Of a stretch of DNA of 64,000 nt, positions 19,543 to 29,568 are shown one piece after another (the stretch's first letter is position 1; every line of letters begins with the position of its first letter). The notes below the pieces were generated by a model, which saw only the letters and a list, made by a program, of their open reading frames with translations, did not search any database and had not been told where the DNA came from. The stretch spans positions 8,675 through 72,674 of the forward strand of contig SHNE01000026.1 of the NCBI GenBank assembly GCA_004295015.1. The letters run 5' to 3'. This stretch comes from Bacteroidota bacterium (GTDB taxonomy: Bacteria > Bacteroidota > Bacteroidia > AKYH767-A > 2013-40CM-41-45). The translations under genes were made by a program, and so were the position numbers.

Positions 19543-21168
19543 TTAGTCAAGGATAATTTTGATCAATTTGACTGAAGCTCCTGCTTGAACCCGGCAGTAG
19601 TAGATGCCGCTCTTTATACCCTCTGTGTTCAATACCAGATGCTGCTCTCCTGATAATTTTTTCTCCGGCAAAAGTACCCGAACAATTTTCCCCGGGTTGT
19701 TATACAAAGTGATCGAACAAATTTGTTCACTCGGCAAACTGAAGTCCATGAACAACTTGTTGTTAGCAGGATTTGGATAAACCATCAGGTTATTGAGAAC
19801 GTTTTTAATCGGCAAATCAGATCGTGAGCTAATTGTCTTGTCAATGAAAACGTCGTAAACTAAAGCATGCGGACGACTCATCCCTTCAGGATCGATGTCG
19901 GCAATGTTCGGAAAATCACTTTCAATTCCTCCTACAATATAGCCGACGTGAGTCTGTCCTGACAAGGAGTTTAAATCGATTATCTTATTATGAATAAGAG
20001 GGACAGAATCCTTCAAAATAAAAAATGCATTTGATCCAAGCAGTCCGGGCATTTCTACCGGCAATTTATATTCAGTAAGATTTCCGTTTGACTCACGTGT
20101 CACCTTACTTATGGTTCTCACAAAAGGAACGAGTGTATCCTGAATTAATACCTGGTTAACTGTATCTAAAGTATACAAACTCATTCCCCCGAAAAAGACC
20201 GAATGCATCGTATTGTTTAACGAGTCAAACACAGGCATTGCAGCTGAGGTGTATTGACTTAAATTCTGATTGAAAGCTGCCTGATGTATCGTAGAGTTAG
20301 CTGTAATATCTATAGGTGTGAGAAAAGGTAAATCAGCATTTTTCTGAAAGACTCCTCCAAATGCCGTAAATCCAAAATCGCCATTTGGAAATATTTGAGG
20401 CAATAGATTTAAATCACGACGATGGAAATTAGTAGTATCAATTTCCGTGTGATAGTTGCTGATCGCCAAATTCACTCCGTCATCTGAGATTCCAAATTTT
20501 CTTATTTCATGTGTATAGGTCTGAGTAAAAGTTCCAAGAGTGGTGTTCCTTGCATAGCGCCCATCAAACCGGTGACCAAATACGAGATAATAAGTTGAAT
20601 CAATTTTTTCCAACATCCCTCCTGCTACAGCCATGTTGCTATCAATCACCTGCCGGAAACAAGATGAGATCGGACCGGAGGAAGCAATACTGCTCAACAG
20701 GCACGAAAGATCTACCGAGATCAAACTATGAAAAGTCAGCCATGTATTCTGACTTGCCATCTTCCCATAGCCGCCTATCATATAGAGGTAGTTGCCATCC
20801 TGATAAAACTGCATGTTCGCCGAACTTATGGCTTCAAAGACTGATGGAGGTAGTTGTGAGGCATCGGCAGCCATGAGTACATTAGTGCCAGGGTCAAGGA
20901 TATAGATTGAATCATTTCTTCCATAAGCCGGAAATGCCTGATTGCTTTGCATGATATGCAAGCCATCAATTCTTCCTCCTATAAAAATCCATTTATTATT
21001 CCATTTAGCCACCGCACCCGAGTGCAAAGGTGGAACAGCATTAACCGTAGAAGGCTGGATACTTATACCAAAACCATGCTGTGCTTCGGTAAATGAAGGC
21101 GACAGAACTATAAGACAAAACAAAACAAACTGAAGAATCTGAATTTTACTTACCTGATTATACGTCAT
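19543..21168 (-). CDS. T9SS type A cargo protein with a Kelch/galactose-oxidase-like beta-propeller
   Basis: 541 aa with a signal peptide. Repeated WIFIGGR, YMIGGY and VFFGGM blades are present. The C-terminal roughly 80 aa (VYPNPANNKLFMDF...GIYYCRV...KLIKIIL) match the T9SS Por C-terminal sorting domain. Confidence 0.7.
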   Translation of the reverse strand: MTYNQVSKIQILQFVLFCLIVLSPSFTEAQHGFGISIQPSTVNAVPPLHSGAVAKWNNKWIFIGGRIDGLHIMQSNQAFPAYGRNDSIYILDPGTNVLMAADASQLPPSVFEAISSANMQFYQDGNYLYMIGGYGKMASQNTWLTFHSLISVDLSCLLSSIASSGPISSCFRQVIDSNMAVAGGMLEKIDSTYYLVFGHRFDGRYARNTTLGTFTQTYTHEIRKFGISDDGVNLAISNYHTEIDTTNFHRRDLNLLPQIFPNGDFGFTAFGGVFQKNADLPFLTPIDITANSTIHQAAFNQNLSQYTSAAMPVFDSLNNTMHSVFFGGMSLYTLDTVNQVLIQDTLVPFVRTISKVTRESNGNLTEYKLPVEMPGLLGSNAFFILKDSVPLIHNKIIDLNSLSGQTHVGYIVGGIESDFPNIADIDPEGMSRPHALVYDVFIDKTISSRSDLPIKNVLNNLMVYPNPANNKLFMDFSLPSEQICSITLYNNPGKIVRVLLPEKKLSGEQHLVLNTEGIKSGIYYCRVQAGASVKLIKIILD

Positions 21169-21182
21169 TGCTGATCTTCAAT

Positions 21183-23060
21183 TTAATTCACCTGCATCCT
21201 ACGAACAGAAGTATTCAGACCATCATTCAATTTAACCAAATACATCCCACGATCTTTTATTTTGTAATCCGGTCGAAACTTTGTTGTACCTGCGTTTACT
21301 TCTATACTTTCAGAATACAATACTTGTCCCAACATAGTACTGATCTCGATATTCAGACTTTTGGTTCGATCACTGGAGATTTCCAAAGTAAAAGTACCAT
21401 GGTTAGGGTTCGGGAATAATGAAACGGTTTTCAACCAGGTATTATCATAAATTCCGACACAAGCATCAACACGAACTATTTGCGAAGTTTCGTAACGGCA
21501 TCCGGCCGGTGTTATGTAGGTGTATTTAATTTCATGCAATCCTTCACCTGCAACAGGCGGTTCGAAAACGAAACATGTAACACCTGTACCTGAAAATGTT
21601 CCGCCGGGTATGGAGGGCTGCAAATTAACCGACTGCGTATAGGTACAATACAAGGTATCTAAACCAACAATTTGAACATTCACCGGCGTTCCCAGAACTA
21701 CTTCTATCGTATCAGAATTGCTGCATAGTGTGTTTGGATTTGTAACTTCAACAATATAAGTGCCCGCCTGAGTCGTTAGCAGCTCGCTGCTATCTTCAGG
21801 TAAAACGTTTCCGTTATGGTACCACGTATAGGTAAAATCCCGGCCTGCCGGAACACTTAAATTAGCAAATCCATATCCACAATCATTCAAGGTATCCAAG
21901 TCACAATTTATACTCGCAACCGGGGTACAATCATTAGACATAAATTTATAAATAGATCCACCCAATGATGCGATATATAAATCACCCCATTTATCTTCTC
22001 CAAAACTTGAATAAGAAGAGCCTAATAAAGTTCCGAGTGTAGTTTTATTAAAACCACCCATGCCATCACTTTCCAAAGTATACATTGTTGGAGTGCAATA
22101 GTCTGTGAAAAAATACTTTCCAAACATATCATTGTAGCGTGAGCCTCTGTAAACATAGCCTCCTGTCACAGAACAACCAAAAGAATGTGAATAGGTGGAA
22201 ACGGGAGCCACATAATTGCTCATTGGCAGACAACCGCCGGCAAGATTATAAGTAGAGTTCCCCTCATAACAACGCCATCCATAATTTAAGCCTCCAGGTG
22301 CATTTGCAGGCTGAAAATCTATTTCTTCAGCTGCCCCCTGTCCAACATCACCTATCCAAAGATCACCGGTACAGCGATCAAAACTCCATCTCCATGGATT
22401 ACGAAGTCCCAATGCCCAAATCTCAGCCCGGCCTTGTGATCCACCACACAGGTATGGATTGGTGGGAGGAATTTTATATCCGGGATATGCAGGATTTACT
22501 TCAATACGTAACATTTTACCAAGTAATGAATCCGGATTCTGTGAACGGTTCTCCGGATCACCTCCTGAACCACCATCACCGGTGCCTATATACAAGTAAC
22601 CATCGGCACCAAAGGCAAGATGACCACCATTATGATTTGAATATGGCTGCCAGATTTCCAAAAGAATTTCTTCGCTTGAATCATTGGCAATATTCGAATC
22701 AAGAGGAGTAACTTTAAACCTGGATATCCTCGTGTTGCCTCTCGTTTGAGCAGTATAATTGACATAAAAAAATCCACTCTCCTGATAATCCGGAGCGAAA
22801 GCTAGTCCAAGAAGACCTTGTTCACTACCTGTCTTCACACGGGTGTGAATATCAAGAAAAGGAGTGCTAAGCCGATTTCCGGCTGTATCAAAAATATAAA
22901 TGTAACCGGGTTGATCAACGACGAAGAGCCTTTCATCTCCACAATTTTTTATATCGACAGGGCTGGATAAACCGGAAGCGAAAGGAACCAGAGATACCTG
23001 GGCCTTGGTAAAAAAACAAGAAAGTATTAGGATAGAACTCAGAGTAATTATACGACGCAT
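21183..23060 (-). CDS. PQQ-dependent sugar dehydrogenase (soluble glucose/sorbosone dehydrogenase fold) fused to Ig-like domains and a T9SS type A C-terminal domain
   Basis: 625 aa. GLLGLAFAPDY, NHNGGHLAFGADGYLYIGTGDGG and NPWRWSFD are SGDH beta-propeller signatures. The C-terminus LFPNPNHGTFTLEI...GMYLVKL is a T9SS C-terminal domain. Confidence 0.75.
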   Translation of the reverse strand: MRRIITLSSILILSCFFTKAQVSLVPFASGLSSPVDIKNCGDERLFVVDQPGYIYIFDTAGNRLSTPFLDIHTRVKTGSEQGLLGLAFAPDYQESGFFYVNYTAQTRGNTRISRFKVTPLDSNIANDSSEEILLEIWQPYSNHNGGHLAFGADGYLYIGTGDGGSGGDPENRSQNPDSLLGKMLRIEVNPAYPGYKIPPTNPYLCGGSQGRAEIWALGLRNPWRWSFDRCTGDLWIGDVGQGAAEEIDFQPANAPGGLNYGWRCYEGNSTYNLAGGCLPMSNYVAPVSTYSHSFGCSVTGGYVYRGSRYNDMFGKYFFTDYCTPTMYTLESDGMGGFNKTTLGTLLGSSYSSFGEDKWGDLYIASLGGSIYKFMSNDCTPVASINCDLDTLNDCGYGFANLSVPAGRDFTYTWYHNGNVLPEDSSELLTTQAGTYIVEVTNPNTLCSNSDTIEVVLGTPVNVQIVGLDTLYCTYTQSVNLQPSIPGGTFSGTGVTCFVFEPPVAGEGLHEIKYTYITPAGCRYETSQIVRVDACVGIYDNTWLKTVSLFPNPNHGTFTLEISSDRTKSLNIEISTMLGQVLYSESIEVNAGTTKFRPDYKIKDRGMYLVKLNDGLNTSVRRMQVN

Positions 23061-24716: not shown

Positions 24717-26273
24717 ATGAAAAAAATTATACTCCTGCTCCTTGCTCTTCCTTGTATCAGCCATGCACAAACAACATGGTCGAATTCCGTAGCGAATATT
24801 TTGTATTCCAGATGCACTTCCTGCCATCATAATGGAGGGATAGCACCATTTTCACTAATGACTTACAGTGATGCGAATTCAAACAGCGGAGATATAGAAG
24901 ATGTCATTCTCAGTGGAGAAATGCCACCCTGGCCTCCCGATTCTCAATTCGCACGCTATGCACATGAAAGGTTACTCACGATCCAGGAACGAAACGACAT
25001 TCTGGATTGGGTGACACAAGGCGCTTTGTCAGGAGACACCAGCCTTGCCCCTGCTGCTCCGATCTATACAGGTTTGGGAGAGATTCAGAATCCTGACCTG
25101 ATCAGCAGAATGCCAACCTTTGCCGTAAATACAGTAAATGATTTGTATCGGTGCTTTGTAATTCCATCCGGAATTACCACAGATCAGTACATAACAGAAC
25201 TTGAAGCTCTGCCGGGAAACAGAAGCATAGTCCATCATATTCTAATCTATGAAGATACGAGCTCTGTTCCCGCGCAACTTGACGCATCTGATCCCGGTCC
25301 CGGTTACACCAATTTTGGAGGTACCGGCTCCTTTGCTTCCAAATTGATAGGAATCTGGGTACCCGGACAACAAGTATCAAGACTCCCTGCAGGGATGGGA
25401 ATAAAATTATCTGCCAACACCAATATTGTGATTCAGGTTCATTATCCCGGTGGAACAACTGGTCAGAGCGACAGTACCGAAATACGTTTTAAATTGACCG
25501 GTACTCCATTAAGAGAAATTTCAATTAATCCTCCATTAAATCATTATCAACTGGACAACGGTCCTCTGTTTATCCCGGCCAATACCACAAAAACCTTTAC
25601 TGCGCAATATACTTTACCTGTTGATGTAAGTGTTCTTGCAGTCGGACCACACATGCACCTCATAGGGAAAAGCATCACTTCCTATGGTGTTACCCCTACG
25701 CAGGATACGATACCGTTCATTCACATACCGCATTGGGACTTTCACTGGCAAGGCACCTATTCTTTTCAAAAGGTTCTTCATGTTCCTGCCGGAACTACAC
25801 TCTATTCATCTGCATTTTATGACAACACCACTGCAAATCTTCACAACCCGAACAATCCTCCACAAAATGTGAGTTTGGGTGAATCTACGACTGATGAAAT
25901 GATGTTGGTTTACTTTGCCTATACTGCCTACCAACCGGGTGATGAAAATATTATTCAGGACAGCTCAATAATTTTGAGTAATCAGGAAATTGCATTTACT
26001 GATATAGTTAGTACTGTTCAGCTTTATTCTCCAAGTCCAAATCCTGCAAGGAACAGGACGAGTATAAAATTCCTTTTACCCTACAAAACGAAAGCCCATT
26101 TGTCTATCACTGATATTCAAGGAAAAGTGCTGTGGCTTGACAAACAAAATAATGAGCGAGGTGCAGGATATCATACTGTAGAAGTTTCTTTATCGGATTT
26201 CGGCAGAGGAATATACACGGTAACCTTAAGTGGTCCTGATTTTATCAAATCAAAAAAACTGATCCTGGACTAA
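24717..26273 (+). CDS. Secreted copper type II ascorbate-dependent monooxygenase-like protein (PHM/DBH fold) with an N-terminal CxxCH motif and a T9SS type A C-terminal domain
   Basis: 518 aa with a signal peptide. His173-His174 and His242 fit the CuH site. H312-M-H314 and Met395/396 fit the CuM site. The 68/70/81-residue spacings are close to the 64/70/70 spacings of PHM. Y-R-C-FVIP lies upstream. CTSCH at residues 33-37 is a CxxCH heme-attachment-like motif. The C-terminus LYSPSPNPARNRTSIKF...GIYTVTL is a T9SS C-terminal domain. Confidence 0.7.
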   Translation: MKKIILLLLALPCISHAQTTWSNSVANILYSRCTSCHHNGGIAPFSLMTYSDANSNSGDIEDVILSGEMPPWPPDSQFARYAHERLLTIQERNDILDWVTQGALSGDTSLAPAAPIYTGLGEIQNPDLISRMPTFAVNTVNDLYRCFVIPSGITTDQYITELEALPGNRSIVHHILIYEDTSSVPAQLDASDPGPGYTNFGGTGSFASKLIGIWVPGQQVSRLPAGMGIKLSANTNIVIQVHYPGGTTGQSDSTEIRFKLTGTPLREISINPPLNHYQLDNGPLFIPANTTKTFTAQYTLPVDVSVLAVGPHMHLIGKSITSYGVTPTQDTIPFIHIPHWDFHWQGTYSFQKVLHVPAGTTLYSSAFYDNTTANLHNPNNPPQNVSLGESTTDEMMLVYFAYTAYQPGDENIIQDSSIILSNQEIAFTDIVSTVQLYSPSPNPARNRTSIKFLLPYKTKAHLSITDIQGKVLWLDKQNNERGAGYHTVEVSLSDFGRGIYTVTLSGPDFIKSKKLILD

Positions 26274-27525: not shown

Positions 27526-29568
27526 ATGACGACAATCAGGCAAAGTTTAATTATTATATTTCTTCTCATAGGGGTGAACCTGGAAGCGCAGACACCGAGC
27601 ACTTGTTTTGAAATCCAAAGTATCCTTGTTGACGCTTGTGGTAATCCTGAAGGGGCCAATGAAATGGCCCGATTTATTATCGGTCCCGCTGATATGAACA
27701 CGGCAGATTTAAGCATTAACTGGCCCAATAATCCTTATCGAAATATATGTCAGAATGCGAATACCGCATCCAAGGTTGCACAATTGAACGCAACGATTCA
27801 GGCATGTGGACTGATACTCGAACCTGTGGGCGGAGTGTTGCCTGCAGGTGCAACTGTTCTGATTGTCACCAGCGAAGATATGGATCCATCGTTTAACTCC
27901 TTTGCAGGATTAACGGACACCTTGTATATGATTTTTCAATGTAGCGGGAATACACAAGGGCATTTTAGAAATTACTCGTCTACTACAGCAATACGTACGT
28001 TGAGCATGTCGTTCACCGGATTTTGCTCCGATCAGGTTGACTATGATGCATCATTACTCGTTGACGCTAACGGAACTCCAACCACAGCTGATGGCAGTAC
28101 AGTAAATTATGATTTCGCAGGAAATGCCACATATACGAATCCGGGATGCCAGGCTCCCATTTCTGCATTGCTTGTAAATCTCTCGGCCAATAGTTCAACT
28201 GTTTGTAACGGAGATCTGATTACGGTCAATGCAACTATTGTTTCAGGAAACTTTTTATCCTATTTCTGGACAGGAGGCGCAGGCACTTACGCAAATCCAA
28301 CTCAACTTAGTACCGCTTATCAGACAGATCCGGGATTTCAGGGAACAGATGTTTTAAGGTTTGGAGTGATCGGAATATGCAATGATACATCTTACACCGA
28401 TTTACAAATTACGATTGGAAGCGGATCAGCTGCCAGCATCAATACAAGTGGACCTAGCACCTTCTGTGCAGGCGATTCAGTAGTTTTAACAGCATCAGCA
28501 GGATCGACCTATTTATGGTCGACTTCAGAAACCACCCAATCGATTACCGTAAACTCTTCAAACACATATACTGTTACTGTTACAGGAAGCTGCGGTACCA
28601 GCACTGCATCTCAAAGTGTAACCGTTAACCCACTTCCATTTGCAAGCATTACTGCAAATGGACCAACGAATTTCTGTCAGGGCGGCTCGGTGACATTAAC
28701 AGCTGCAGGAAGCGGACCTTTTCTATGGTCAACAGGAGCTACAACAGCAAGCATTAGTGCAAATACCACAAATACATATATACTTAGCGTTACAAATGGT
28801 TGCGGAACGGATACCGCCTCTCAAAGCGTGCTGGTCGACCCTGCTCCATCGGCAATGATCAGCGGAGCGCCAACAGTTGTATGCCCGAATGAAACAATCA
28901 CTCTTATTGCTAGCGGAGGAACAGGTTATTTATGGTCAACAGGAGCTACCACTACATCGATCACCATTAACACCGGAGGAACCTATAGTGTAACTGTGAA
29001 TACATCTTGCGGTTCTGACATGAGCAGCGTTATCATTGGCAGCAGTAATCTTAATGTCGGCTTTAGTGCAGACACATTAAGCGGCGCCTTTCCGCTCGAT
29101 GTAAACTTTAGCAATACTTCTGTTGGTGGAAATATTTTCAGCTGGAATTTTGGTGATGGAAATACAACATCTGCGAACAACCCACAACACACATTTCAAT
29201 CAAACGGCACATACAATGTGATATTAACAGGAACAGACGTTTTAGGGTGTACAGACACTGCACAGATTACAATCGTTGTATATGACGACACTCAAATTAC
29301 CATACCAAATGTATTCACACCGAATAATGATGGTAAAAATGAGTTCTTTAATATTTTCACAAACAAAACAAACCTTGGTGTGAACGGTCAAATATTTAAT
29401 CGCTGGGGAAAGGAAATTGCCACATGGAATTCGTTGACTGAAGGATGGAACGGAAAAACTAAAGGAGGAAGCGATGCGGCAGAAGGAGTTTATGTTTATA
29501 TCGTGAAAATTATTTTTCCCGATGGAAATATTGATGAACGAAACGGAGCCGTTAGTCTAATCCGGTAA
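27526..29568 (+). CDS. T9SS type B (gliding-motility-associated C-terminal domain) cargo protein with repeated Ig-like domains and a PKD domain
   Basis: 680 aa with a signal peptide. Four consecutive repeats of about 75 aa (FCxGxSVxLTA...YLWSTGATTxSIT...) are present. A PKD-like segment follows (FSWNFGDGNTTSANNPQHTFQSNGTYNVILTGTD). The C-terminus NVFTPNNDGKNEFFNI...GVYVYIVK matches the type B sorting domain. Confidence 0.75.
   Translation: MTTIRQSLIIIFLLIGVNLEAQTPSTCFEIQSILVDACGNPEGANEMARFIIGPADMNTADLSINWPNNPYRNICQNANTASKVAQLNATIQACGLILEPVGGVLPAGATVLIVTSEDMDPSFNSFAGLTDTLYMIFQCSGNTQGHFRNYSSTTAIRTLSMSFTGFCSDQVDYDASLLVDANGTPTTADGSTVNYDFAGNATYTNPGCQAPISALLVNLSANSSTVCNGDLITVNATIVSGNFLSYFWTGGAGTYANPTQLSTAYQTDPGFQGTDVLRFGVIGICNDTSYTDLQITIGSGSAASINTSGPSTFCAGDSVVLTASAGSTYLWSTSETTQSITVNSSNTYTVTVTGSCGTSTASQSVTVNPLPFASITANGPTNFCQGGSVTLTAAGSGPFLWSTGATTASISANTTNTYILSVTNGCGTDTASQSVLVDPAPSAMISGAPTVVCPNETITLIASGGTGYLWSTGATTTSITINTGGTYSVTVNTSCGSDMSSVIIGSSNLNVGFSADTLSGAFPLDVNFSNTSVGGNIFSWNFGDGNTTSANNPQHTFQSNGTYNVILTGTDVLGCTDTAQITIVVYDDTQITIPNVFTPNNDGKNEFFNIFTNKTNLGVNGQIFNRWGKEIATWNSLTEGWNGKTKGGSDAAEGVYVYIVKIIFPDGNIDERNGAVSLIR

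What the first reader, a model, noticed from the sequence alone, without database searches (positions are those of the whole stretch)
24717..26273. A T9SS-secreted PHM/DBH-type copper monooxygenase carries an N-terminal CxxCH motif
The protein has both PHM copper sites with correct spacing: H173/H174/H242, and H312/H314/M395 (or M396). It also has the conserved Y-x-C segment. This fold is mainly eukaryotic and ascorbate-dependent. Here a CTSCH motif sits about 15 residues after the signal peptide, in a domain of about 100 aa. That raises the possibility of a covalently bound heme acting as a built-in electron donor in place of ascorbate. The T9SS C-terminal domain implies export to the cell surface or medium. 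The substrate is unknown; a peptide C-terminus, phenethylamine, or a glycan or lignin-like substrate are all possible.
Basis: partly seen in the sequence, partly recalled or inferred. Interest (0 to 1): 0.6.

Follow-up and report, generated by a model that had tools for sequence, protein, structure and literature searches.

The report
Secreted bacterial copper monooxygenase with fused cytochrome
This gene encodes a secreted bacterial relative of the animal hormone-processing copper enzymes PHM and DBH, fused to a small domain that is probably a c-type cytochrome and likely supplies the electrons that vitamin C supplies in animals; it belongs to a very large protein family on which I found no published work.

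Summary
Window 24717-26273 (+) is an intact 518-aa ORF with four parts:
- a signal peptide (residues 1-17);
- a ~90-aa helical domain with C33-T-S-C36-H37 and M69-PPWPP;
- a PHM/DBH-type two-domain copper core, with both Pfam models above their curated cut-offs, Foldseek E 1e-13 to DBH/PHM, and ligands H173/H174/H242 and H312/H314/M395;
- a type A T9SS sorting tail.

All heme-motif and copper-ligand residues are invariant in 38 Bacteroidota homologues. They are also invariant in ~27%-identical Planctomycetota relatives. There the same cytochrome-plus-core module sits behind a peroxiredoxin-like domain, and Pfam cytochrome c models pass their cut-offs.

The module is widespread: 17,229 clusters at 50% identity, and 139 of 140 full-length representatives keep CxxCH...MP.

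PHM's peptidylglycine-binding R240 and N316 are not conserved, so this is not a peptide-amidating enzyme. The substrate is unknown.

Heme binding, heme-to-copper electron transfer and the external reductant are inferred, not shown. The gene neighbourhood is not conserved. No paper on this family turned up in the searchable library.

Verdict: a real feature and a new variant of a known enzyme kind, of moderately high interest.

The parts
24717..26273 (+). Complete gene, 518 codons plus stop
   Evidence: ORF list and translation. An identical protein is in public assemblies (P0001) and there are at least 3,797 homologous 90% clusters.
24717..24767 (+). Signal peptide, residues 1-17 (MKKIILLLLALPCISHA, cleaved before Q18)
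   Evidence: Read from the sequence: a KK n-region, a hydrophobic core and an A-Q junction. Q18 is invariant in 38 homologues. This fits the Bacteroidota habit of an N-terminal Gln after signal peptidase I cleavage (my own knowledge). No signal-peptide predictor was run.
24768..25031 (+). Putative mono-heme c-type cytochrome domain, residues 18-105
24813..24827 (+). C33-T-S-C36-H37, heme c attachment motif
   Evidence: Invariant in alignments A1 and A4. Present in 139 of 140 full-length 50%-cluster representatives. Chance expectation is 0.001 per protein.
24921..24938 (+). M69-P-P-W-P-P; M69 is the candidate distal heme ligand
   Evidence: M69, P70, P71 and W72 are invariant across both phyla. 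The alternative ligand H83 is replaced by N, D, Y or G in several members.
25032..25097 (+). Conserved linker of fixed length, residues 106-127
   Evidence: 53% mean identity. No length variation between Bacteroidota and Planctomycetota, and G106, P112, P126 and D127 are invariant. A fixed rather than flexible connection is my inference from this.
25098..25511 (+). PHM/DBH N-terminal beta-sandwich with the CuH site (H173, H174, H242) and Y144-R-C146
   Evidence: Pfam PF01082, 35.7 bits against a cut-off of 30. The ligands align to PHM H107/H108/H172. pLDDT is mostly 84-96.
25512..25946 (+). PHM/DBH C-terminal beta-sandwich with the CuM site (H312, H314, M395) and Q345
   Evidence: Pfam PF03712, 31 bits against a cut-off of 23. 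The ligands align to PHM H242/H244/M314, and Q345 aligns to the Gln of PHM's LPQAFY segment. All are invariant across phyla.
25947..26036 (+). Variable spacer, residues 411-440
   Evidence: 41% identity and low pLDDT. In longer homologues this position holds Ig, PKD or Flg_new_2 repeats.
26037..26270 (+). Type A T9SS C-terminal sorting domain, residues 441-518
   Evidence: PF18962, 33.5 bits against a cut-off of 27; TIGR04183, 38.2 bits against a cut-off of 23.

Best explanation
The gene encodes a self-contained heme-copper monooxygenase that is exported across both membranes.

Proposed route. The Sec system exports the protein and the signal peptide is removed before Q18. In the periplasm, heme is attached covalently to C33/C36, with H37 and M69 as the axial ligands. 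Two copper ions load into a PHM/DBH-type core: CuH at H173/H174/H242 and CuM at H312/H314/M395. The folded holoprotein is then carried across the outer membrane by the type IX secretion system, directed by its C-terminal tail. It ends up on the cell surface or in the medium.

Proposed catalysis. The cytochrome domain takes single electrons from an unidentified outside donor and passes them to CuH, the role ascorbate plays in PHM and DBH. CuH relays them to CuM. There O2 is activated and a C-H bond of the substrate is hydroxylated.

What is shown: the domain architecture, the fold, ligand conservation and the secretion signal.

What is inferred: heme attachment, the direction and path of electron flow, monooxygenase chemistry, and the donor.

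The substrate is unknown. It is unlikely to be a glycine-extended peptide.
For: - Copper core. Both Pfam models exceed their cut-offs. Foldseek gives E 1e-13 to DBH 4zel and some 30 PHM entries, with target-normalised TM 0.64-0.69. All six ligands align to the PHM ligands.
- Ligand conservation. The ligands are invariant within Bacteroidota and between Bacteroidota and Planctomycetota at ~27% identity.
- Coupling of the two parts. They stay together in nearly all of the 150 best representatives. The linker has a fixed length and invariant residues across phyla. The cytochrome domain is nearly as conserved as the core.
- Self-sufficiency. No neighbouring gene is conserved across 80 loci, so no separate partner gene is indicated.
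- Secretion. The T9SS tail HMMs exceed their cut-offs.
- Precedent. An X183 c-type cytochrome domain of Cbp2D can reduce a copper LPMO outside the cell, as reviewed in PMC10916295.
Against: - The query's own N-terminal domain stays below the Pfam cut-offs (23.9 and 17.1 bits against 27).
- Foldseek on the domain model finds nothing significant.
- The CxxCH and MPPW loops are the low-confidence parts of the full-length model.
- No coordinates were available, so no heme-to-CuH distance could be measured.
- No electron donor for a cytochrome outside the outer membrane of Bacteroidota is known to me. A single heme delivers only one electron at a time.
- In the related extracellular case, the TtX183 cytochrome domains failed to activate the cognate LPMO (PMC10916295).
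- Cytochrome c maturation genes are not in this window. This protein carries the only CxxCH among the window's large ORFs.
Confidence: 0.55

Rival explanations
1. The N-terminal domain does bind heme c, but it does not feed the copper site. It could be an electron exit, with the copper core oxidising a substrate and passing electrons out through the heme. It could be a redox or gas sensor. Or it could only prime a peroxide-driven (peroxygenase) reaction, as proposed for LPMOs.
For: In Planctomycetota the same module is fused to a peroxiredoxin-like domain with a TxxC motif (TECP), which links the module to peroxide chemistry. A single heme cannot supply both electrons of a monooxygenase cycle at once. 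The extracellular location leaves the reductant unexplained.
Against: All six ligands of the PHM-type site, which consumes electrons, are invariant. So is Q345, which aligns with a PHM Gln. A six-coordinate His/Met heme is typical of electron carriers (my own knowledge). PHM-type chemistry needs electron input.
Confidence: 0.15
2. The CxxCH segment does not bind heme. It is a disulfide or a metal (Cu or Zn) site in a small helical domain, and the enzyme relies on small-molecule reductants such as ascorbate or phenolics from its environment, as PHM and DBH do.
For: The query's domain scores below the Pfam cut-offs. Foldseek finds no significant cytochrome match. The motif loop has low pLDDT in the full-length model.
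Confidence: 0.12
3. It is a true peptidylglycine alpha-hydroxylating monooxygenase that amidates or degrades secreted peptides.
For: PHM entries are among the best structural matches. Y399 aligns with PHM's substrate-binding Y318 and is at least 90% conserved.
Against: By the alignment, PHM R240, which binds the glycine carboxylate, corresponds to G310 (Gly or Ala in the family), and N316 corresponds to L397. No lyase (PAL) partner or other conserved neighbour was found. The best sequence match is DBH, not PHM.
Confidence: 0.05
4. The double beta-sandwich core is a non-catalytic binding or copper-handling module on the cell surface. The fold is shared with PNGase F and with carbohydrate-binding modules.
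For: PHM and PNGase F share a Pfam clan, and the fold resembles that of carbohydrate-binding modules (PMC8812541). Weaker Foldseek matches include jelly-roll domains of glycosidases. Aromatic residues W340, F342, W344 and Y348 are invariant within Bacteroidota.
Against: Strict invariance of both copper sites, together with a fused redox domain, is hard to explain without redox catalysis.
Confidence: 0.06

Closest known systems
Peptidylglycine alpha-hydroxylating monooxygenase (PHM; PDB 1phm, 1opm, 1sdw)
   Same: The same two-domain beta-sandwich fold (Foldseek E ~1e-13, target-normalised TM 0.64-0.69). The same HH...H and HxH...M copper ligand sets in register, and the DEM motif around the Met ligand.
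   Different: About 17% identity. No counterpart of R240 or N316. One Cys in the core, against my recollection of five disulfides in PHM. A fused cytochrome-like domain. A bacterial protein exported by T9SS. No PAL domain or partner.
Dopamine beta-hydroxylase, tyramine beta-monooxygenase and MOXD1 (PDB 4zel)
   Same: The best sequence match (profile E 8e-06) and the best Foldseek match. These also carry an extra N-terminal domain ahead of the copper core.
   Different: Their N-terminal domain is a DOMON beta-sandwich, not a helical CxxCH domain, and they use ascorbate. No DOMON model matched here.
Mono-heme c-type cytochromes PccH (4rlr) and FoxE (5mab)
   Different: 16-19% identity. These are stand-alone periplasmic proteins. 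The query domain is below the Pfam cut-offs.
Cellobiose dehydrogenase cytochrome domain with LPMO, and bacterial X183 c-type cytochrome domains (Cbp2D, TERTU_2913)
   Same: Works alike: an extracellular cytochrome domain hands single electrons to a secreted copper oxygenase (PMC10916295).
   Different: Those systems use separate polypeptides and a mononuclear histidine-brace copper site. Here the cytochrome and a two-copper PHM-type core are on one chain. The TtX183 domains did not activate their LPMO. This is an analogy, with no homology to the LPMO.
Planctomycetota 'redoxin domain-containing protein' / JGI 'peroxiredoxin/mono/diheme cytochrome c family protein' (P0277-P0396)
   Same: A homologous cytochrome-plus-PHM-like module with identical heme and copper ligand positions and the same linker length.
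   Different: It carries an N-terminal peroxiredoxin-like domain and a C-terminal membrane anchor instead of a T9SS tail. Identity is about 27%. The precomputed Pfam annotation does not detect its copper core. It is also uncharacterised.

Membership tests
Copper type II ascorbate-dependent monooxygenases (PHM/DBH/TBM; Pfam PF01082 + PF03712) | Sequence matches to both domain models above the curated cut-offs | tested here: met
   35.7 bits against 30, and 31 bits against 23. All 38 aligned homologues match both models at E <= 0.01.
Copper type II ascorbate-dependent monooxygenases (PHM/DBH/TBM; Pfam PF01082 + PF03712) | Two-domain beta-sandwich fold | tested here: met
   The AF2 core has pLDDT mostly 84-96. 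Foldseek gives E 1e-13 to 4zel and to PHM entries.
Copper type II ascorbate-dependent monooxygenases (PHM/DBH/TBM; Pfam PF01082 + PF03712) | CuH ligands HH...H and CuM ligands HxH...M, in register | tested here: met
   H173/H174/H242 and H312/H314/M395 align to PHM H107/H108/H172 and H242/H244/M314. They are invariant.
Copper type II ascorbate-dependent monooxygenases (PHM/DBH/TBM; Pfam PF01082 + PF03712) | Binds two copper ions and uses ascorbate as reductant | not testable with these tools
   Needs metal analysis and enzyme assays. The fused cytochrome-like domain suggests a different reductant.
PHM in the strict sense (peptidylglycine hydroxylase) | Substrate carboxylate clamp R240, N316 and Y318 | tested here: not met
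   By the alignment, R240 corresponds to G310, N316 to L397 and Y318 to Y399. Only the Tyr is kept.
DBH/MOXD1-type architecture | N-terminal DOMON domain | tested here: not met
   No DOMON match in Pfam even at E <= 1. The N-terminal domain is helical.
Class I-like c-type cytochromes (Pfam clan with Cytochrom_C, Cytochrome_CBB3, Haem_bd) | CxxCH heme attachment motif after an N-terminal helix | tested here: met
   C33-x-x-C36-H37 follows helix 21-32 and is invariant.
Class I-like c-type cytochromes (Pfam clan with Cytochrom_C, Cytochrome_CBB3, Haem_bd) | Distal axial ligand (Met or His) in the C-terminal half | tested here: inconclusive
   M69 is invariant and lies 32 residues after H37. Whether it ligates the heme cannot be shown without a holo structure.
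Class I-like c-type cytochromes (Pfam clan with Cytochrom_C, Cytochrome_CBB3, Haem_bd) | Family HMM above the curated cut-off | tested here: not met
   The query scores Haem_bd 23.9 and Cytochrome_CBB3 17.1 against a cut-off of 27. Homologous modules in P0225 and P0165 score 37.1, 34.1 and 27.4, so membership rests on transitive homology.
Class I-like c-type cytochromes (Pfam clan with Cytochrom_C, Cytochrome_CBB3, Haem_bd) | Cytochrome c fold | tested here: inconclusive
Class I-like c-type cytochromes (Pfam clan with Cytochrom_C, Cytochrome_CBB3, Haem_bd) | Covalently bound heme | not testable with these tools
   Needs a heme stain, a pyridine hemochrome spectrum or mass spectrometry.
T9SS type A cargo | C-terminal sorting domain plus an N-terminal Sec signal | tested here: met
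   TIGR04183 38.2 bits against 23, and PF18962 33.5 bits against 27. The signal peptide was read from the sequence. At least two further proteins with T9SS type A tails lie in the same window.

The most novel reading that the evidence does not exclude
The cytochrome c plus PHM-like module is a large, unrecognised class of prokaryotic, cytochrome-driven two-copper monooxygenases (or peroxygenases). It is possibly the ancestral form of the PHM/DBH family, in which eukaryotes later swapped the fused heme domain for ascorbate. In Bacteroidota the T9SS version would act outside the cell on an abundant substrate such as a polymer or dissolved organic matter. That would make it a single-chain counterpart of the cellobiose dehydrogenase plus LPMO pair, perhaps fed by secreted PQQ dehydrogenases like the one two genes upstream.
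Probability: 0.3. Interest if true: 0.8.

Novelty: new variant of a known kind. Interest (0 to 1): 0.62.

Why it matters
- **Which organisms have these enzymes.** Reviews treat PHM and DBH as eukaryotic cuproenzymes (PMC7435645, PMC8812541). A bacterial branch with thousands of sequence clusters and its own fused electron carrier would change that view. It would also show what replaces ascorbate outside eukaryotic secretory vesicles.
- **Mechanism.** To my knowledge, how an electron crosses the solvent gap between CuH and CuM is a long-debated question. A built-in heme would give an optical and electrochemical handle for injecting single electrons into CuH.
- **Ecology.** The gene occurs in at least 574 Bacteroidota species genomes, mostly freshwater, soil and wastewater lineages. 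A new secreted oxidative enzyme in these organisms could matter for the turnover of polymers or dissolved organic matter, and as a self-sufficient hydroxylation catalyst.
- **Annotation.** Most database names for this family mention only the T9SS tail or a redoxin domain. A few NCBI and JGI names do cite the copper monooxygenase. The Planctomycetota copper core goes undetected by Pfam.

Tried and rejected
- **Domain-only protein search.** Querying with the N-terminal domain alone returned six short fragments and no new architectures.
- **AlphaFold database.** The afdb50 fold library was not available, so UniProt-annotated structural neighbours could not be listed.
- **Profile of the N-terminal domain against PDB sequences.** Only weak hits: hydrazine synthase alpha E 0.017 and cytochrome c6 E 0.97.
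- **Gene neighbourhood in 80 loci.** Nothing is conserved across the family. The second-largest 'family' (42 loci) was an antisense ORF inside the gene itself. The DUF1573 arrays and housekeeping genes are lineage-specific.
- **The GSDH-DDAH-gene order.** It holds only in seven close relatives, so I treat it as a lead and not as evidence of a link.
- **H83 as distal heme ligand.** Considered because it aligns to a His in hydrazine synthase alpha. Rejected in favour of M69, because H83 is replaced by other residues in several members and in all the Planctomycetota sequences.
- **Lipoprotein reading of C13.** Rejected: the Cys is not conserved.
- **Literature.** Ten searches found no paper on bacterial PHM/DBH-like enzymes or on T9SS cytochromes. 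The library holds only open-access papers and bioRxiv preprints.
- **Promoter and terminator scan.** Not run. Bacteroidota promoters fall outside the tool's consensus.
Full report
**1. The observation**

Window 24717-26273 (+) is an uninterrupted ORF of 518 codons.

Pfam places Cu2_monooxygen on residues 131-243 (35.7 bits, cut-off 30). It places Cu2_monoox_C on residues 298-403 (31 bits, cut-off 23) and the T9SS sorting domain on residues 441-516 (33.5 bits, cut-off 27). NCBIfam TIGR04183 gives 38.2 bits against a cut-off of 23.

From the protein's own composition, about 0.001 CxxCH motifs are expected by chance.

**2. The copper core**

A 38-sequence alignment (A1) gave an AlphaFold2 model with mean pLDDT 81. 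The core is mostly 84-96.

Foldseek against the PDB returns human DBH (4zel) and about 30 PHM entries as the top 31 matches, at E 1e-13 to 1e-10 and target-normalised TM 0.55-0.69. The next hits are generic beta-sandwiches at E > 1e-6.

HMM alignments to PHM put the residues in register as follows:

| This protein | PHM |
|---|---|
| H173/H174 | H107/H108 |
| H242 | H172 |
| H312/H314 | H242/H244 |
| M395 | M314 |
| Q345 | the Gln of LPQAFY |

All of these are invariant in 38 homologues of 48-73% identity.

In the same alignment PHM's substrate clamp is not kept. R240 corresponds to G310 and N316 to L397; only Y318 is retained, as Y399. The protein therefore belongs to the PHM/DBH catalytic family but is not a peptidylglycine hydroxylase. 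It also has no DOMON domain, so it does not have the DBH architecture.

**3. The N-terminal domain**

On the query itself Pfam gives only sub-threshold hits: Haem_bd 23.9 bits and Cytochrome_CBB3 17.1 bits, both against a cut-off of 27. Four other lines of evidence point to a c-type cytochrome.

- **Conservation.** C33, C36, H37 and M69-P-P-W are invariant. The domain is almost as conserved as the core, at 54% against 60% mean pairwise identity. The T9SS tail is at 31%.
- **Topology.** The order is helix, CxxCH, two helices, MPPW, C-terminal helix, as in class I cytochromes.
- **Transitive homology.** In distant homologues of the whole module the same domain passes the Pfam cut-offs. Cytochrome_CBB3 scores 37.1 bits (P0225) and 34.1 bits (P0165), and Haem_bd scores 27.4 bits (P0225).

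Two results weigh against. Foldseek on the small model found nothing significant. The profile search of PDB sequences gave only a weak hit to the heme domain of hydrazine synthase alpha.

M69 is the better candidate for the sixth ligand than H83. H83 is replaced by other residues in several Bacteroidota members and in all the Planctomycetota members.

**4. How widespread the module is**

The full-length query finds at least 3,797 clusters at 90% identity. It finds relatives in at least 574 species-representative genomes. The 80 loci kept are almost all labelled Bacteroidota: Flavobacteriales, Chitinophagales and Saprospiraceae, including the cultured Flavipsychrobacter stenotrophus.

A profile of cytochrome plus core, without the tail, was run against 1.84 billion representatives:

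| E-value threshold | Clusters at 50% identity |
|---|---|
| 1e-3 | 17,229 |
| 1e-10 | 10,299 |
| 1e-30 | 3,604 |

Nearly all of the best 150 cover the whole profile. Of those 150, 139 keep CxxCH...MP. Ten are N-terminally truncated gene calls. One has YSSCH.

Longer members insert Ig, PKD or Flg_new_2 repeats before the T9SS tail, as is usual for surface proteins.

A second large lineage lies in Planctomycetota, with 7,028 hits. It is named 'redoxin domain-containing protein', or by JGI 'peroxiredoxin/mono/diheme cytochrome c family protein'. It carries the same module behind a peroxiredoxin-like domain and ends in a membrane anchor.

The two lineages are about 27% identical. Even so, CxxCH, MPPW, all six copper ligands and Q345 are invariant between them. 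The 22-residue linker has the same length in both, with G106, P112, P126 and D127 invariant.

Heme motif, linker and copper sites have thus been kept together across two phyla. This is the strongest computational argument that the two parts work as one unit.

**5. Genomic context**

No neighbouring gene family is conserved across the 80 loci. That fits a self-contained enzyme.

Only in the window and seven close relatives (53-73% identity) is one gene order kept. It runs: T9SS-tailed PQQ-type glucose/sorbosone dehydrogenase, then a DDAH-like gene, then this gene. The dehydrogenase is a candidate external reductase, but this is only a lead.

The window holds no other CxxCH protein among its large ORFs and no cytochrome maturation genes.

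**6. Mechanism**

The best-supported reading has these steps:

1. Sec export, with signal peptide cleavage before the invariant Q18.
2. Covalent heme attachment and copper loading in the periplasm.
3. T9SS export of the folded holoprotein.
4. Outside the cell, single-electron uptake by the heme.
5. Transfer from heme to CuH and then to CuM.
6. O2 activation and hydroxylation of an unknown substrate.

The architecture, fold, ligand conservation and secretion signal are shown. Heme binding, the direction of electron flow, the chemistry and the donor are inferred.

The main weakness is that I know of no electron source for a cytochrome outside the Bacteroidota outer membrane.

Extracellular c-type cytochrome domains that can reduce a copper oxygenase have a precedent in Cbp2D X183. 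However, the related TtX183 domains did not activate their LPMO (PMC10916295).

Four rivals remain:

- a heme with a role other than electron donor, including peroxide-driven chemistry, which the peroxiredoxin fusion in Planctomycetota hints at;
- no heme at all;
- a true PHM;
- a non-catalytic module.

**7. Novelty**

The ten literature searches (two of them on related extracellular cytochromes rather than on this family) found no paper on bacterial PHM/DBH-like enzymes, on a cytochrome fused to one, or on T9SS-secreted cytochromes. Reviews list PHM and DBM as eukaryotic (PMC7435645). One paper states that PHM is widespread in eukaryotes and PNGase F in bacteria (PMC8812541).

Most database names for the family mention only the T9SS tail or a redoxin domain. 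A few do name the copper monooxygenase.

The catalytic fold is known. The fused cytochrome, the prokaryotic distribution and the T9SS export are new. I therefore rate it a new variant of a known kind. The limit on this judgement is that only an open-access library could be searched.

**8. Verdict**

- Confidence in the full mechanistic statement is 0.55. By part: architecture and secretion about 0.9, copper monooxygenase core about 0.85, heme binding about 0.8, heme-to-CuH electron supply about 0.6.
- Interest is 0.62.

Noticed in passing
window 21183-23060 (-): A 625-aa PQQ-type glucose/sorbosone dehydrogenase (GSDH, 131 bits) with its own T9SS tail. The order GSDH, DDAH-like gene, copper monooxygenase is kept in seven related loci (L001, L002, L004, L005, L006, L008, L010) but not across the wider family. 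It could be an extracellular reductase for the cytochrome domain.
   Followed up: partly
window 19543-21168 (-): A 541-aa protein whose only Pfam match is the T9SS sorting tail. It is a secreted protein of unknown function next to the GSDH gene.
   Followed up: no
proteins P0277-P0396 and P0225 (not in the window): A very large Planctomycetota family: peroxiredoxin-like domain (TECP motif), then cytochrome c, then a PHM-like core, then a membrane anchor. The precomputed Pfam annotation sees the redoxin and sometimes the cytochrome, but never the copper core. P0225 is a tandem fusion of two such units, and P0165 has two cytochrome-core units joined by EF-hand segments.
   Followed up: partly
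L047 3204-6331 and L053 6342-9581: Two full-length paralogues of the gene sit side by side in these loci, so the family duplicates locally in some genomes.
   Followed up: no
L011-L019, about 2-8 kb downstream of the gene: Arrays of 4-9 tandem small ORFs of one family with signal peptides. From memory they resemble DUF1573, but they were not scanned. They lie on the opposite strand and are restricted to one sub-lineage.
   Followed up: no
window 25146-25154 (Y144-R-C146): C146 is the only Cys in the copper core of this protein, so the disulfide that the aligned PHM Cys forms cannot exist here. A sub-clade has a second Cys near residue 186 (motif NTC). Planctomycetota members have no Cys at this position, while Y144 is invariant across both phyla.
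   Followed up: partly
window 25174-25458 (-): A 94-aa antisense ORF inside the gene. A similar antisense ORF recurs in 42 related loci, simply because the coding strand is conserved. It is most likely not a gene.
   Followed up: partly
window 27526-29568 (+): A 680-aa PKD-repeat protein with a CHU_C (type B) T9SS signal. With the type A cargoes nearby, this stretch of the window is rich in secreted proteins.
   Followed up: no
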